The notes: generated from the sequence alone by a model not told the origin. A stretch of DNA of 64,000 nt from a virus (IMGVR_UViG_3300005614_001084:96001-160000), one strand, 5' to 3'. Positions 3,836 to 12,839 are shown, numbered from the stretch's first letter. Translations and numbers: made by a program.

Positions 3836-4189
3836 GAGATCGGTACGACGCACATTCCATCCCGCGATCGTCTCCAACCCTACAACTCTCGTTCGTCATC
3901 GCTTCCATGCTCGGCCTAGGCCCGGCGCGTTAGCTTGAGACCCACCTGCTTACCCACGGTGGTCCTGGGTTACTGCGCCAAGCTGATCCCTCCCATGCTG
4001 CGCGCAACAAAGCTCGCGGCGCATCCGCGCGAGACTTACATCTCAACAACACCACCAGCTTTTCCGCGGTGGTCCCGGATCGATGCAGGTCTCGTCCCCT
4101 GCCAGGAGGCCCGACCTTCTCACGTAGACTTCCGTCGTCGGCCCTTTCCGTTCATCACACAGCGCCGGCTTACCCGCGGCGTTCCGGGA
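3836..4189 (-). ncRNA. array A: 3 pseudoknot repeats with (GNNN)n tracts
   Basis: 28-nt repeats at 3942, 4052, 4162 (110-nt period); period-4 C on + strand, clearest at 3841-3934. Confidence 0.75.
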
Positions 4190-4481
4190 GCATCTTCGGT
4201 CTCACACGATGCGGGCCGTGCGGACACATCGTGAGGTCGATGGCTGGCCTGACGTCACCGCGCGAATCCATCCGATCGATGATGTTGTTGATGTCGCGCA
4301 CCTCATGCCCGGTATCGTCGAAGTGCGCCGCATCTTCGTGCGACTTGCCGCAGTGCGCGCAGAGGTCGTGAGCGTAGACACCTTCCATCTCAGCACCAGC
4401 CACGAACTCGTGCTGATCCCCGTACACATCACGGGCCAGGTTCCCGCCGCACTCCTCGCAGATGCACCTCACCTCGTTCAC
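4170..4481 (-). CDS. small Cys/His-rich protein
   Basis: CEEC, CAHC; GTGA overlap; stop TAA lies inside the 4162 repeat. Confidence 0.6.
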   Translation of the reverse strand: MNEVRCICEECGGNLARDVYGDQHEFVAGAEMEGVYAHDLCAHCGKSHEDAAHFDDTGHEVRDINNIIDRMDSRGDVRPAIDLTMCPHGPHRVRPKMLPERRG

Positions 4482-5116
4482 TTCGTGCTCCCCGGCTTCA
4501 CGCGTTCGAGCAAGAAGTCGAGGTCGGCGCAGTGATCGACTCCCCACATCTCTGCGGCCTCGGCGCGAAGCTTCGCGACGAAGGTGTCGGCCTCGGCGCG
4601 CAGGGCGTGCACCTTCTCGTACAGCTTCTCGGGATCACCCCACAGCTCGGCCTTCACCATCGCGGCGTTGACCCTGCGTCCCCGACCTCCCTTGCTTCTC
4701 GGCGGATCGATCTCCGCGCTGAGCCGCATCAGTCGGTACATCCCCTCGTTGATTTCGGTCGCGCCCTCGAACGCATCCCGAATCTCCTCCGCCAGCCACA
4801 TCGCCTGCTCTTCGCTCAGCGCCAGGCGCTCGACGAGCAGCGCAAGACCATCGGCATGCTTCTTCTCCCAGTCCAGCATCGTGGCGCGGCTCTTCTTCTC
4901 CTCCGCGATGCGGCATCTCTCCTCGTGCGCCGCGTAGTAGTAGTTCGCGCGCTCCACCGGATCACTACTCGCCGTGATCTCGATGCGAACGTCGTTGAAC
5001 ACCAAGACCTCGGTGTTGCCGGTGCGCTTCGCCTCTTCCACCACCGCTTTCGTCGCATCGGTGATCCACCCCAGGGTGTGGATGGTGCCGTCTTCCCTCC
5101 GATACAGTCGAAACAT
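4478..5116 (-). CDS. hypothetical protein
   Basis: CTATAAG + GGAGG then ATG 5116. Confidence 0.75.
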   Translation of the reverse strand: MFRLYRREDGTIHTLGWITDATKAVVEEAKRTGNTEVLVFNDVRIEITASSDPVERANYYYAAHEERCRIAEEKKSRATMLDWEKKHADGLALLVERLALSEEQAMWLAEEIRDAFEGATEINEGMYRLMRLSAEIDPPRSKGGRGRRVNAAMVKAELWGDPEKLYEKVHALRAEADTFVAKLRAEAAEMWGVDHCADLDFLLERVKPGSTK

Positions 5117-5131
5117 CTCTACCTCCAAGAT

Positions 5132-5138
5132 CTTATAG
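5132..5138 (-). promoter_or_regulatory. CTAT(A/C)AG phage promoter motif (representative of ~20 copies)
   Basis: Recurs just upstream of RBS/start codons on both strands; list in findings. Confidence 0.65.
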
Positions 5139-5141
5139 GGC

Positions 5142-5167
5142 AAAAAGAACACGCCAAAGCGTGTTCT
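5142..5167 (-). terminator. intrinsic terminator closing array B
   Basis: AGAACACGC-TTTG-GCGTGTTCT-TTTT. Confidence 0.75.
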
Positions 5168-10677: not shown

Positions 10678-11201
10678 GATCGTCTCCTTCTTCGATACGG
10701 TGGTCTGCCGCGGTTCTTCTTCACCACCGCGTACAGGCGGGCCTGGATGCGACGAAGCTCTGCGATGGTCTCGGGAGTGAGATGGCGGCGGAACACGGCC
10801 TGGCGCAGACGACGCGCCACCTTGTCCCTTCTCTCGCGTGCCCAGCCATGATCGTCGAACATGTTGAGCGTGGACTCCACGCCGAGCCCGTTCTGCCGAG
10901 CCAGCCCGATGCTGAGCAGAGACGCGATCTCCTCCTCTGCATCAACAAGTCTTTCTGAGATCTCGGCGCGATGCTGGCCAAGCCTGTGCGGATCACCGAG
11001 ACCGAAGTACGGCAGCTCCTTGCGCGATGGTGGTGCGACCAGCAGATGCGCCAGCTCGTGCGCCAAGTGCTCAGCGGTATCTGCGGTATGGGCGTCCTCT
11101 TCCTCGTCGTAGTACGGCCACTCACCTTCGATCCACCGCAGCCCGTGCTTGCTCGCCAGCTTGATGATGTTGCGCCCTGCGACCGTGTTCAACGCGACCA
11201 T
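10674..11201 (-). CDS. HExxH metallopeptidase-like (ImmA/IrrE-like) protein
   Basis: LAHELAHLL; true start ATG 11201 after CTATAAG/GGAGG. Confidence 0.6.
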   Translation of the reverse strand: MVALNTVAGRNIIKLASKHGLRWIEGEWPYYDEEEDAHTADTAEHLAHELAHLLVAPPSRKELPYFGLGDPHRLGQHRAEISERLVDAEEEIASLLSIGLARQNGLGVESTLNMFDDHGWARERRDKVARRLRQAVFRRHLTPETIAELRRIQARLYAVVKKNRGRPPYRRRRRS

Positions 11202-11225
11202 GCCTTCCTCCGCATGCTTATAGAC

Positions 11226-11253
11226 AAAAAGATCAACCCGAAAGTTGATCTTT
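11226..11253 (-). terminator. intrinsic terminator closing array E
   Basis: AAAGATCAAC-TTTCGG-GTTGATCTTT-TT. Confidence 0.75.
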
Positions 11254-11627
11254 AGTACCCAGCTCTCCGCAGAGCTATGATCCGTTCCTACCACCTATCG
11301 TAGCTACCGAAGTTCTATACCCCAATCGTTCAGTCATATGGCTGTTCAGTCATATGGCCGGCCGCCCTGTGATACTGGAGGTGGTGCCGCCTGCTTACCC
11401 GCGGCGGCCCCGGAAGTTTCGATCTGAAAGAGCGAGCCCGACGTCTCTTGTTCGCCAACGCTAGCCCCCAGAGAATGGACGACACCGGCTTACCCACGGT
11501 ATCCCTGGGATCGATCTTGTTGGACGTAGTACGTTCCCGCGTCCTGTGCCACCAGCGATACTTCGACCGCCTTCAGGCGTCCCATCCATCCTTGAAGCGC
11601 CACCTGCTTCACCGCGGTGGCCCCGGC
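11254..11627 (-). ncRNA. array E: 3 pseudoknot repeats with (GNNN)n tracts, directly downstream of RAMP gene
   Basis: Repeats at 11387, 11482, 11600. Confidence 0.8.
11328..11358. repeat. tandem duplication GTTCAGTCATATGGC x2 (16-nt period)
   Basis: 11328-11342 and 11344-11358. Confidence 0.9.
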
Positions 11628-11668
11628 GCAGCCTGAGTTCTCTCGGCTACTCGCGAAAGATCGCGTTC

Positions 11669-12775
11669 CTACTCCGCGGAGACCTCGGCAGCTTCCGCCG
11701 CTTCGAGGTCGTCCATGCCCTTCGAGTTGACGACACCCGCGATCTTGACGCCGCTGAGGCGCGCCACGGTCTTGTCGAGGTAGCCGGCGTACTGCTGTCG
11801 AAGCTCCGCCGGCACACCGGCGAGCAGGTGATCGAGGGGGCCCTCCTTCACCTTGCCGAGCTGCTCGAAGCTGATGGGCAGCAGCGTACCGTAGCGGGTG
11901 CCTCGGGCGGGACTGAGGCCGCGACGCGGCTGCAAGCACGCCACCCACAGCATGCGTTCGAGCTGGTCGGGGGCGAGGAAGCCCTTGACCGGCGCGCTGA
12001 ACCGGATCTCGAACTCCACGCCCGGCAGCAGCGCCTCGTACTTCTTCGGCGCCGCGGGACCGTTCGCGCTCTGCACCGGCAGCACGACCTCTTCCATCGG
12101 GGCGTCGGCCGGGATGCGGATGGGCTGGAACGCGACGTAGTCGGCACGGGCCGCCGGCAGCCCGGCCGGATGCATCACGTTGGTGCGGAACCAGCCGCGC
12201 TGCACGTCCGGCGTGATGATGATCTCCTTGGTGTTGAGATCACGCTCGAAGATACCGTTGCCGGTGATGTCCTCGTCCTTCTCGTGGACGCCGCGGGCCT
12301 TGAGCATCATCTCGCTCGGGATCTGCGAGCCGAGCAGCGGCGTCAGCGTGCGCACGCGCAGCAGGTAGCTGCGGTACTCGTCGATGATGTTGCCGCGGCC
12401 CGCCTTCTCGTCACCCTGCTTCTCCTTCTTGTCGAAGCCGGACTTCAGATCCTCCAGCTCGACAGTGCGAAGCAGCTCGGGCAGCAGATCGCCGACGTGC
12501 GCGTACTCCGGCGGGGACTTCCACCCCAGCTTCTTCATCTCCCAGACCTTCACCATCTTGGAGTTGGCGCCGACCGGGCGCTGGTTCTCCGCGATGATGT
12601 CGCGCTTCTTCAGGCCCTTCAGCGCCTGCGTGAGCAGGTTGTTGTTCGGTCCGAAGTTGCAGTCGAGCGCGGTCGCCGCCGTCTCGACGATGTTGGCGAT
12701 CGTGGCGCTCCCCATCTTCTGCACGATGTAGGTAGCGATGAGCTGGGCTTCGGTCAGGTTCTCGATGATCTTCAT
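11669..12775 (-). CDS. solitary RAMP-superfamily (Cas7/Csm3-like) protein with N-terminal wHTH
   Basis: RAMP motifs in order: LRVRTLTPLLG; IIITPDVQRGWFR (~IPGSSLKGxxR); YEALLPGVEFEIRF; Gly loop GLSPARGTRYG. Confidence 0.7.
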   Translation of the reverse strand: MKIIENLTEAQLIATYIVQKMGSATIANIVETAATALDCNFGPNNNLLTQALKGLKKRDIIAENQRPVGANSKMVKVWEMKKLGWKSPPEYAHVGDLLPELLRTVELEDLKSGFDKKEKQGDEKAGRGNIIDEYRSYLLRVRTLTPLLGSQIPSEMMLKARGVHEKDEDITGNGIFERDLNTKEIIITPDVQRGWFRTNVMHPAGLPAARADYVAFQPIRIPADAPMEEVVLPVQSANGPAAPKKYEALLPGVEFEIRFSAPVKGFLAPDQLERMLWVACLQPRRGLSPARGTRYGTLLPISFEQLGKVKEGPLDHLLAGVPAELRQQYAGYLDKTVARLSGVKIAGVVNSKGMDDLEAAEAAEVSAE

Positions 12776-12839
12776 GTTCGTTTTCTCCCGTTGATGGGCA
12801 TGGCCCTTCAACTACTGATAGCTGATCTTAGAACGAGGT

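What the first reader, a model, noticed from the sequence alone, without database searches (positions are those of the whole stretch)
3836..12821. Candidate new RNA-guided system: solo wHTH-RAMP protein + 16 pseudoknot-headed (GNNN)n RNAs
Seen: a RAMP/Cas7-like gene (11669-12775) with no recognisable cas1/2/5/6/8/10 in the window. It is followed by array E and four more loci (A-D) spread between unrelated small genes over 8 kb. There are 16 copies of a 28-nt repeat (consensus RNA UCCGGGACCACCGCGGGUAAGCAGGUGG) at 3942, 4052, 4162, 5247, 5413, 5513, 5630, 5781, 5903, 6657, 6825, 6937, 9579, 11387, 11482 and 11600. Each precedes a unique ~50-140 nt tract with G at every 4th base. Known: Cas7-family RAMPs polymerise along guide RNA with a fixed footprint (6 nt in class 1 CRISPR). 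Inference: the protein coats each tract with a 4-nt footprint, gripping the G and presenting three variable bases to a target. The wHTH could contact DNA, e.g. to repress rival phage, host defence or own genes. From memory, and unverified here, phage VIPR systems pair a RAMP protein with GGY/NN pentamer RNAs; this would be a related but different tetramer code. It is not a canonical CRISPR array.
Basis: partly seen in the sequence, partly recalled or inferred. Interest (0 to 1): 0.96.

Follow-up and report, generated by a model that had tools for sequence, protein, structure and literature searches.

The report
Four-base-period VIPR-like phage guide system
An uncultured 172-kb phage encodes a lone CRISPR-type (Cas7-like) RNA-binding protein fused to a DNA-binding domain, together with 16 RNAs that start with a small pseudoknot and continue with a G at roughly every fourth base; this looks like a four-base relative of the five-base VIPR RNA-guided silencing systems described in 2026, but its targets and reading rule are still unknown.

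Summary
The gene at 11669-12775 (-) encodes a 368-aa protein with an N-terminal PadR-like winged helix (Z 13) and a C-terminal Cas7/Csm3/Cmr4-like RAMP domain (Foldseek E 5e-7, Z 10-11). The 100%-complete phage genome has no Cas1, Cas6 or Pfam RAMP match.

All 16 repeats lie at the stated coordinates, all on the minus strand, and only there in the genome. They form a covarying H-type pseudoknot: 90% of cells paired and 7 of 9 pairs compensatory.

The tracts 3' of the repeats carry a G period of exactly 4 (z = 10), not 3 or 5. The pattern is statistical, with about 67% G and phase slips, and 4 of 16 tracts are weak.

The protein family has 166 clusters, all from phage or metagenome DNA. At least nine independent loci have same-strand period-4 G tracts beside the gene, with clade-specific structured handles.

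All published VIPR types use 5-nt units. The family shows no sequence link to type II Vipr, the handle is 5' rather than 3', and there is no conserved partner gene. I found no targets under 9-10 pairing rules.

Verdict: a new 4-nt variant of the VIPR kind. The guide function is inferred, not shown. The scan noted a similar 4-nt RNA in another phage (e1-5772271).

The parts
11669..12775 (-). Gene for the 368-aa wHTH-RAMP protein. Residues 1-107 form a PadR/Pex-like winged helix, followed by two helices (89-120). Residues 130-312 form a Cas7-like RRM core with the G-loop GLSPARGTRYG (283-296). The C-terminus is helical.
12815..12821 (-). CTATCAG promoter-like motif about 40 nt upstream of the RAMP start. 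It is a member of the phage-wide YCTAT[AC]AG motif (33 copies).
11228..11627 (-). Array E, in the 3' UTR of the RAMP gene. Pseudoknot handles lie at 11600-11627, 11482-11509 and 11387-11414. Tracts are 11510-11599, 11415-11481 (no periodicity) and 11254-11386 (20-unit run). The intrinsic terminator is at 11228-11253.
9503..9606 (-). Locus D. A single handle at 9579-9606 lies inside the 3' end of ORF 9565-10677. The tract 9528-9578 has 10 of 12 units as NNNG. The terminator hairpin is at 9503-9527.
6553..6964 (-). Array C. Handles lie at 6937-6964 (overlapping the stop of ORF 6940-7461), 6825-6852 and 6657-6684. Tracts are 6853-6936, 6685-6824 and 6571-6656. The terminator is at 6553-6570.
5144..5930 (-). 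Array B, with six units. Handles lie at 5903-5930 (overlapping the stop of ORF 5911-6522), 5781-5808, 5630-5657, 5513-5540, 5413-5440 and 5247-5274. The terminator hairpin is at 5144-5166.
3815..4189 (-). Array A. Handles lie at 4162-4189 (overlapping the stop of ORF 4170-4547), 4052-4079 and 3942-3969. Its tracts have the weakest periodicity. The terminator is at 3815-3829.
5124..5143 (-). Promoter/RBS module TTGCCCTATAAGATCTTGGAGG directly behind the array B terminator. The same module occurs at 6548, 9502, 11227 (variant), 13802 and 15788, so each array closes one of five consecutive operons with the same start signal.

Best explanation
This is a phage-encoded, VIPR-like ribonucleoprotein system with a four-nucleotide register.

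Shown: a solitary Cas7-like RAMP fused to a PadR-like winged helix is encoded beside, and co-varies across phage lineages with, arrays of RNAs. Each RNA consists of a clade-specific structured handle (here a 28-nt H-type pseudoknot) and a long unique tract with G every fourth base.

Inferred: five co-regulated operons are transcribed through their 3' UTR arrays and stop at intrinsic terminators. The precursor is cut near the handles, possibly at the GATC-containing element. The pseudoknot marks the 5' end of each unit and nucleates or caps assembly. RAMP protomers polymerise along the tract, one per NNNG unit. That gives about 13-35 protomers here and more in relatives. The phased G is held by the G-loop and thumb, as GGY is in Vipr, and two or three variable bases are exposed to read a nucleic-acid target. 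The fused wHTH takes the place of the separate WH/HTH-type Vap partner or the helical bundle that contacts DNA in VIPR.

The most likely output is sequence-directed binding and silencing of a competing mobile element or host gene, without cleavage.
For: - Fold: Cas7, Csm3, Cmr4 and Cas7-11 hits with Foldseek E 5e-7 and Z 10-10.7 over about 150 residues; the wHTH scores Z 13. A family profile weakly hits Csm5 across the canonical RAMP helix-1 motif, and PadR.
- The G-loop R-x-R-[FY]-G motif lines up with the SUSP1 Vipr G-loop DWRPRFGRF.
- The window RAMP model and a SUSP1-type Vipr model share the same five top viral neighbours in BFVD. The nearest ESM Atlas clusters are 170-250-aa phage proteins.
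- RNA: the pseudoknot covaries. The G period is 4 with z = 10 and a coherence of about 32 nt. Tracts are unique and no more structured than shuffles.
- Co-occurrence: period-4 G windows lie on the gene strand next to homologues in L001, L002, L006, L012, L013, L014, L023, L024 and L015. There are 168 such windows against 10 on the opposite strand and 9 at period 5.
- Handles differ by clade: a pseudoknot in the window, L009 and L006, and hairpins in L001, L002, L013 and L014.
- L006 units read promoter motif, handle, tract, terminator.
- The array is not alignable between phages whose proteins are 87% identical.
- The family occurs only in phage or metagenome DNA, with none in 185,579 cellular species genomes.
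- A mechanistic precedent exists in Vipr-vrRNA filaments.
Against: - There is no RNA or protein evidence of any kind.
- No target was found in the phage's own genome, in 342 kb of related loci, or as exact gapped patterns in IMG/VR.
- G occupancy is only about 67%, phase slips are frequent, and four tracts are not periodic. SUSP1 vrRNAs are far more regular.
- Tracts of 50-320 nt are much longer than VIPR guides (45-80 nt).
- There is no significant sequence relation to type II Vipr (hhalign probability 0.3%).
- More distant homologues (30-39% identity: L011, L018, L020-22) show no clear period-4 tract.
- The AF2 model is of moderate quality (pLDDT 76, with disordered stretches at 121-130 and 152-173).
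Confidence: 0.6

Rival explanations
1. The protein does coat the period-4 RNAs, but the complex is not a guide. It would be a scaffold, sponge or protective cap. For example, it could stabilise the 3' ends of five early operons, sequester the protein, or act as a decoy for a host RNA-sensing defence. It would then resemble TRAP or CsrA binding to periodic RNA motifs.
For: - Arrays sit in the 3' UTRs of five consecutive operons with identical start signals.
- No targets were found.
- Tracts are very long and only loosely periodic.
Against: - Every tract is unique, and the array diverges beyond alignment between close relatives. A scaffold or cap would not need that.
- In L006 the units are free-standing transcription units, not UTRs.
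- The closest mechanistic precedent for a solo phage RAMP with periodic RNA is a guide.
Confidence: 0.2
2. The system is RNA-guided but reads RNA rather than DNA, as the structurally nearest Cas7 proteins do (Csm3, Cmr4, Cas7-11, type VII). It would then bind or cut transcripts of a competitor or host.
For: - The best structural matches are all RNA-targeting type III, III-E and VII Cas7 proteins.
- Vipr filaments also accept RNA targets in vitro.
Against: - The fused winged helix points to DNA contact.
- The conserved loop after strand 1 (LGSQ) carries no acidic residue, so an acidic catalytic residue in the loop after strand 1, as in Csm3/Cmr4, is not evident there. Residue-level superposition was not done.
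- VIPR silences DNA.
Confidence: 0.1
3. The arrays and the RAMP gene are functionally unrelated. The pseudoknots and G-rich, C-poor tracts would be cis-acting transcription or processing elements of this phage module, for example Rho-resistant spacers or antitermination signals.
For: - The tracts are C-poor and G-rich (C 0.20, G 0.36, against 0.31 and 0.32 in the genome).
- They lie between terminators and promoters.
- The arrays are spread over 8 kb.
Against: - Period-4 tracts follow the homologue gene, on the same strand, in at least nine unrelated contigs with different handles.
- Composition alone does not give an exact 4-nt phase over 32 nt.
Confidence: 0.07

Closest known systems
VIPR systems (Vipr RAMP + vrRNA; Escherichia phage SUSP1 type II; bioRxiv 10.64898/2026.04.26.720920 and 10.64898/2026.04.26.720927)
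   Same: - It is phage-encoded.
- It has a single minimal RAMP outside any cas context.
- The RNAs are built from short tandem units with a conserved G and variable bases, joined to a structured module (a pseudoknot in the SUSP1 clade).
- Several RNAs lie in arrays flanking the gene.
- There are no self-targets.
- The RAMP domain shares its nearest viral structural neighbours with Vipr.
   Different: - The unit is 4 nt (NNNG), not 5 nt (YNNGG, NNNGG, YNNNG or NNNNG). No period-5 signal is present.
- The pseudoknot lies 5' of the tract, not at the 3' tail.
- Tracts are 50-140 nt (up to about 320 nt in relatives) and only about 67% regular.
- The protein is 368 aa with a fused PadR-like wHTH, against 195 aa with an inserted helical bundle.
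- There is no conserved vap gene.
- There is no detectable sequence homology to type II Vipr.
- Arrays are dispersed in the 3' UTRs of five operons.
Class 1 CRISPR backbone proteins: Csm3/Cmr4 (type III), Cas7-11 (III-E), Cas7 of types IV and VII
   Same: These are the best solved-structure matches: RRM core, G-loop and a beta-hairpin where the thumb lies. They show the principle of one protomer per fixed number of guide nucleotides.
   Different: - The footprint there is 6 nt on a spacer of arbitrary sequence, with a repeat-derived handle.
- They need Cas5, Cas6, Cas10 or Cas8, Cas11 and usually Cas1-Cas2. None of these is present here.
- The repeats here are pseudoknots at irregular spacing of 95-168 nt.
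Non-canonical VIPR arrays and other periodic intergenic arrays in the Evo-PIN survey (bioRxiv 10.64898/2026.10.21.760802)
   Same: The survey found arrays from periodicity and colocalised Vipr-like folds, including non-GGY pentamers.
   Different: The survey reports periods of 60-79, 18 and 5 nt (96% of clusters), plus 10, 8 and 7 nt. The text does not describe a RAMP-linked 4-nt class.
TRAP-trp leader RNA (11 (G/U)AG triplets bound by an 11-mer)
   Same: A protein oligomer reads a periodically spaced conserved base motif in single-stranded RNA.
   Different: The fold is unrelated, it forms a closed ring, and it serves a regulatory rather than a guide role. This is an analogy from general knowledge and was not tested here.

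Membership tests
VIPR system | Solitary RAMP-fold protein (RRM core, G-loop, thumb) outside a cas operon | tested here: met
   The fold matches Cas7, Csm3 and Cmr4. The G-loop GLSPARGxRYG is nearly invariant. Cas1, Cas6 and Pfam RAMPs are absent from the genome. The thumb is inferred from the beta-hairpin at 227-249 only.
VIPR system | Protein belongs to the Vipr clade by sequence or phylogeny | tested here: inconclusive
   hhalign of the 65-member family profile against a 22-member type II Vipr profile gives probability 0.3%. Only type II could be tested, and RAMPs are known to lack sequence similarity. Both models share the same top five BFVD neighbours.
VIPR system | vrRNA made of tandem pentanucleotide units (GGY/NN or related 5-mers) | tested here: not met
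   The period is 4, not 5, in the window and in homologue loci. The same code finds period 5 in SUSP1.
VIPR system | Repeat tract followed by a conserved structured 3' tail | tested here: not met
   A conserved pseudoknot exists but precedes the tract. Locus D has no periodic sequence upstream of the handle. L006 reads promoter motif, handle, tract, terminator. RNA ends were not measured.
VIPR system | Adjacent vap accessory gene | tested here: not met
   No neighbouring gene is shared among 20 homologue loci (tblastn). A wHTH is fused to the RAMP instead.
VIPR system | Variable bases match natural targets under a gapped (1-nt skip) rule | tested here: inconclusive
   Nothing exceeded shuffled controls in the phage's own genome or in related loci under 9-10 rules. 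Six exact gapped or contiguous patterns found nothing in IMG/VR. The host and co-resident elements are unknown.
VIPR system | Protein-RNA filament that binds DNA and silences transcription | not testable with these tools
   This needs pull-down, sRNA-seq, cryo-EM and reporter assays.
CRISPR-Cas class 1 | CRISPR array of constant repeats and similar-length spacers, with Cas6/Cas5 handle processing and a large subunit | tested here: not met
   Repeat spacing is 95-168 nt and the repeat is a pseudoknot. No cas genes are present. There is no PADLOC or NCBIfam hit.
PadR-like winged-helix regulators | wHTH fold with C-terminal helix | tested here: met
   Pex gives Z 13.2 with rmsd 2.0 over 97 residues, and PadR entries give Z 9-10. 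The family profile hits PadR chains at E about 0.01. DNA binding was not tested.

The most novel reading that the evidence does not exclude
A RAMP lineage with no detectable sequence similarity to type II Vipr has a tetranucleotide guide code of its own. One anchored G and three freely variable bases per protomer would read targets in triplets, either contiguously (4 RNA : 3 DNA) or with one skipped base (4:4). A winged helix built into every protomer would contact the DNA. This would be a second, differently geared programmable code for nucleic-acid recognition in large phages.
Probability: 0.35. Interest if true: 0.9.

Novelty: new variant of a known kind. Interest (0 to 1): 0.8.

Why it matters
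VIPR, described in 2026, showed that a minimal RAMP plus a 5-nt-repeat RNA can read DNA through a gapped code. All seven published types, and a later language-model survey, report only 5-nt units.

A protein family of 166 clusters that pairs a wHTH-fused RAMP with 4-nt-period RNAs would show that the register of such codes is not fixed. It would give a second geometry, possibly three read bases per protomer, for comparison with Vipr and Cas7, and so bear on how RAMP footprints evolved (4, 5 or 6 nt).

It would also offer another compact programmable binder. Finally, it shows an unusual genomic layout, with guide-like arrays serving as the 3' UTRs of five co-regulated phage operons.

Tried and rejected
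- Sequence libraries: Pfam, PHROGs, NCBIfam, PADLOC and PDB sequence search gave nothing significant for the protein.
- Rfam (E up to 1) found no known RNA family, ribozyme or riboswitch in 3000-14000.
- Megablast of the region against 50,697 phage records found no match.
- Profile-profile comparison with type II Vipr was not significant.
- Target searches: the phage's own genome under 10 rules; 65 tracts from the window and relatives against 342 kb of loci under 9 rules; six exact patterns in IMG/VR, covering NNNx, contiguous NNN, N1N2x and N2N3x. All were empty. These scans needed 7-12 perfect consecutive units and covered only two tracts, so they are weak negatives.
Only one IMG/VR locus turned up, and none in cellular genomes.
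- Near-identical phage variants that could show which tract positions vary: L002/L017 and L006/L007 are identical in sequence.
- Conserved accessory gene: none found.
- Tract secondary structure: z-scores run from -2.4 to +1.8, mostly near 0, so there is no conserved fold and no strong avoidance of structure.
- Readings rejected: a CRISPR array (irregular spacing, pseudoknot repeat, no cas genes) and protein-coding tracts (no period 3).
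Full report
OBSERVATION

The window is part of a 172,310-bp virus record that CheckV rates 100% complete. 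Its G+C content is 62.5%.

The ORF at 11669-12811 (-) most likely starts at the ATG at 12775, behind GGGAGAAAACGAAC, and encodes 368 aa.

All 16 copies of the 28-nt repeat are on the minus strand at the coordinates given. A scan that asks only for the two stems and the AAG loop recovers 15 of the 16. It finds nothing convincing elsewhere in the genome.

On an alignment of the 16 copies, the proposed H-type pseudoknot pairs positions 1-4 with 14-17 and positions 8-12 with 24-28. The loop is UAAGCA.
- 90.3% of cells are paired, against 73% in shuffles.
- Seven of nine pairs carry compensatory changes.
- None of 500 shuffles reaches the observed values, and sliding the partners by 1-3 columns drops pairing to 34-51%.
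- The G-U pairs, the gene orientation and the U-tracts of the terminators all say the RNA is the minus strand.

THE TRACTS

The G indicator in the 16 tracts 3' of the repeats has a summed power of 13-15 at period 4, against 2.5-4.8 at periods 3, 5 and 6. That is z = 10.1 against shuffles. Autocorrelation peaks fall at lags 4, 8, 12 and onward to 32.

Coding sequence just upstream of the first repeat of each array shows no such signal. The same code applied to the published SUSP1 VIPR locus gives a clean period of 5. I located that locus at NC_028808 27500-29510; its residue numbers match the cryo-EM paper.

A segmentation gives NNNG units with G at 67% of the fourth position and no strong bias at the other three.

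- Best runs are 8-25 units with 75-87% G.
- Phase slips are frequent.
- Only 6 tracts are individually significant and 4 are not periodic at all.
- The tracts are G-rich and C-poor.
- They are neither more nor less structured than shuffles.

ANATOMY OF THE LOCUS

A motif YCTAT[AC]AG occurs 33 times in the genome, nearly always 8-12 nt before GGAGG and a start codon. I take it to be this phage's promoter signal.

The sub-class TTGCC(C)TATAAGATC occurs only five times, all on the minus strand between window 5138 and 15783. A variant lies at 11223. Each copy sits directly behind an intrinsic terminator.

The region is therefore a row of operons with the same start signal, and five of them end in an array:
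- E follows the RAMP gene.
- D follows ORF 9565-10677.
- C follows ORF 6940-7461.
- B follows ORF 5911-6522.
- A follows ORF 4170-4547.

In A-D the first handle overlaps the end of the upstream ORF. The RAMP gene also has its own CTATCAG motif at 12821. None of the ten neighbouring proteins has a Pfam family.

GATC lies within 14 nt upstream of 8 of 16 handles, against 12% background (p = 3e-4). I cannot explain this. It might mark a processing site.

THE PROTEIN

Sequence libraries give nothing.

AlphaFold2 on a 13-sequence alignment gives a mean pLDDT of 76.
- Residues 1-107 match PadR/Pex winged-helix regulators (Z 13.2, rmsd 2.0 over 97 residues).
- Residues 130-312 match Cmr4, Csm3, and type IV, VII and III-E Cas7 (Z 9-10.7 over about 150 residues; Foldseek E 5e-7).

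A 65-member family profile reaches Csm5 at E 0.014 across the canonical RAMP helix-1 motif, and reaches PadR chains at E 0.008. The near-invariant GLSPARGxRYG is the glycine-rich loop before the last strand. It lines up with DWRPRFGRF of SUSP1 Vipr, the loop that holds the GGY guanines.

Overall homology to type II Vipr is not detectable (probability 0.3%). However, the window model and a SUSP1-type Vipr model (pLDDT 93) have the same five viral proteins as their top BFVD hits. The nearest ESM Atlas clusters of the RAMP domain are 170-250-aa phage proteins. These are leads, not proof of kinship.

THE FAMILY AND ITS RNAs

An exhaustive profile search finds 166 clusters at 50% identity, most of them two-domain proteins of 280-450 aa. 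Relatives occur in metagenome contigs of up to about 200 kb. There is one in IMG/VR and none in 185,579 cellular species genomes.

Period-4 G windows lie next to the gene and on its strand in L001, L002, L006, L012, L013, L014, L023, L024 and L015. In total there are 168 such windows, against 10 on the opposite strand and 9 at period 5.

The structured repeat changes with the clade:
- The same pseudoknot appears in L009 (87% protein identity) and L006 (56%).
- Hairpins with conserved loops appear in L001 and L002.
- L014 has a 45-nt covarying hairpin and L013 a 79-nt element.

In L006 each unit reads promoter motif, 8-9 nt, pseudoknot, a 140-220-nt tract, then a conserved terminator. Together with locus D, this places the handle at the 5' end in this clade. 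In L001 and L014 the conserved hairpin seems to follow the tract instead.

The array downstream of the gene cannot be aligned between the window and L009, although the proteins are 87% identical. No neighbouring gene is conserved across loci. More distant homologues (30-39% identity) show no clear tract.

COMPARISON WITH WHAT IS KNOWN

VIPR systems pair a roughly 190-aa Vipr RAMP with vrRNAs of 9-16 YNNGG units followed by a 3' tail. One protomer binds one unit, GGY is sequestered, and NN pairs with DNA while every third target base is skipped. The outcome is silencing of competing elements.

All seven published types have pentanucleotide units (YNNGG, NNNGG, YNNNG or NNNNG), and most have a vap partner that is often a WH/HTH protein. 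A later survey of periodic intergenic arrays reports periods of 60-79, 18 and 5 nt plus a few at 10, 8 and 7 nt. It reports none at 4 nt with a RAMP. Neither the third VIPR paper nor a further text search mentions a tetranucleotide form.

The present system fails the pentamer, 3'-tail and vap criteria, so I do not file it as a VIPR member. It works most like one. The fused wHTH may stand in for Vap or for the helical bundle.

The scan itself has noted a 62-unit G-NNN RNA near a Cas7-like gene in another phage (e1-5772271). I did not check that note.

FUNCTION

Guide function is inferred from analogy, from the uniqueness and fast divergence of the tracts, and from the strict association with the RAMP.

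I found no target.
- Ten pairing and skip rules against the phage's own genome gave nothing above shuffled controls.
- Nine rules for 65 tracts against 342 kb of related loci gave nothing above shuffled controls.
- Six exact patterns in IMG/VR gave nothing.

The absence of self-targets fits VIPR. The external scans are weak negatives.

My estimates for the main readings are:
- about 0.6 for an RNA-guided, VIPR-like binder with a 4-nt register;
- 0.2 for an RNP without guide function;
- 0.1 for RNA rather than DNA targeting;
- under 0.1 for no functional link between the protein and the arrays.

VERDICT

The feature is real and well supported as a RAMP-plus-periodic-RNA system. It is a new variant of a kind known since 2026. 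The mechanism is untested.

Noticed in passing
window 5138, 6544, 9498, 11223, 12821, 13797, 15783 (minus) and genome-wide: A phage-wide promoter-like motif YCTAT[AC]AG has 33 copies, nearly all 8-12 nt before GGAGG and ATG. The sub-class TTGCC(C)TATAAGATC occurs only in this module, each copy directly behind a terminator.
   Followed up: partly
window, 14 nt upstream of handles at 5630, 5781, 5903, 6657, 6825, 6937, 11387, 11482: GATC precedes 8 of 16 handles, against 12% of background windows (p = 3e-4). It could be a processing site or a promoter remnant. This is unexplained.
   Followed up: partly
window ~11327-11358 (minus): The tract after handle 11387 contains an in-register 16-nt duplication of four NNNG units (GCCATATGACTGAAC twice). 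This hints that tracts grow by whole-unit duplication.
   Followed up: no
L006:11127-11185: Two pseudoknot handles lie in tandem only 3 nt apart, directly after the homologue's stop codon. A further handle at about 11690 runs straight into a called 64-aa ORF that shows no period 3 and is probably another tract.
   Followed up: partly
L009:1714-1837, L010:1366-1397: Contigs carrying the closest relatives end 124 and 32 nt after the RAMP gene, so short-read assemblies apparently break at the arrays. In L009 a G-rich tract precedes the first recognisable handle.
   Followed up: no
L022:4949-5015: Right after a 34%-identical homologue the periodic base is C on the gene strand, which is G period 4 on the opposite strand. 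This could be a convergently transcribed array.
   Followed up: no
window 12808-13776 (minus): Two small ORFs lie between the promoter at 13802 and the RAMP gene. Another reader called one of them a second wHTH protein. Neither is conserved next to homologues, and I did not fold them.
   Followed up: partly
window 34895-35281 (minus): A phage-encoded tmRNA carries the unusual tag peptide ANDSSYAQARAA.
   Followed up: no
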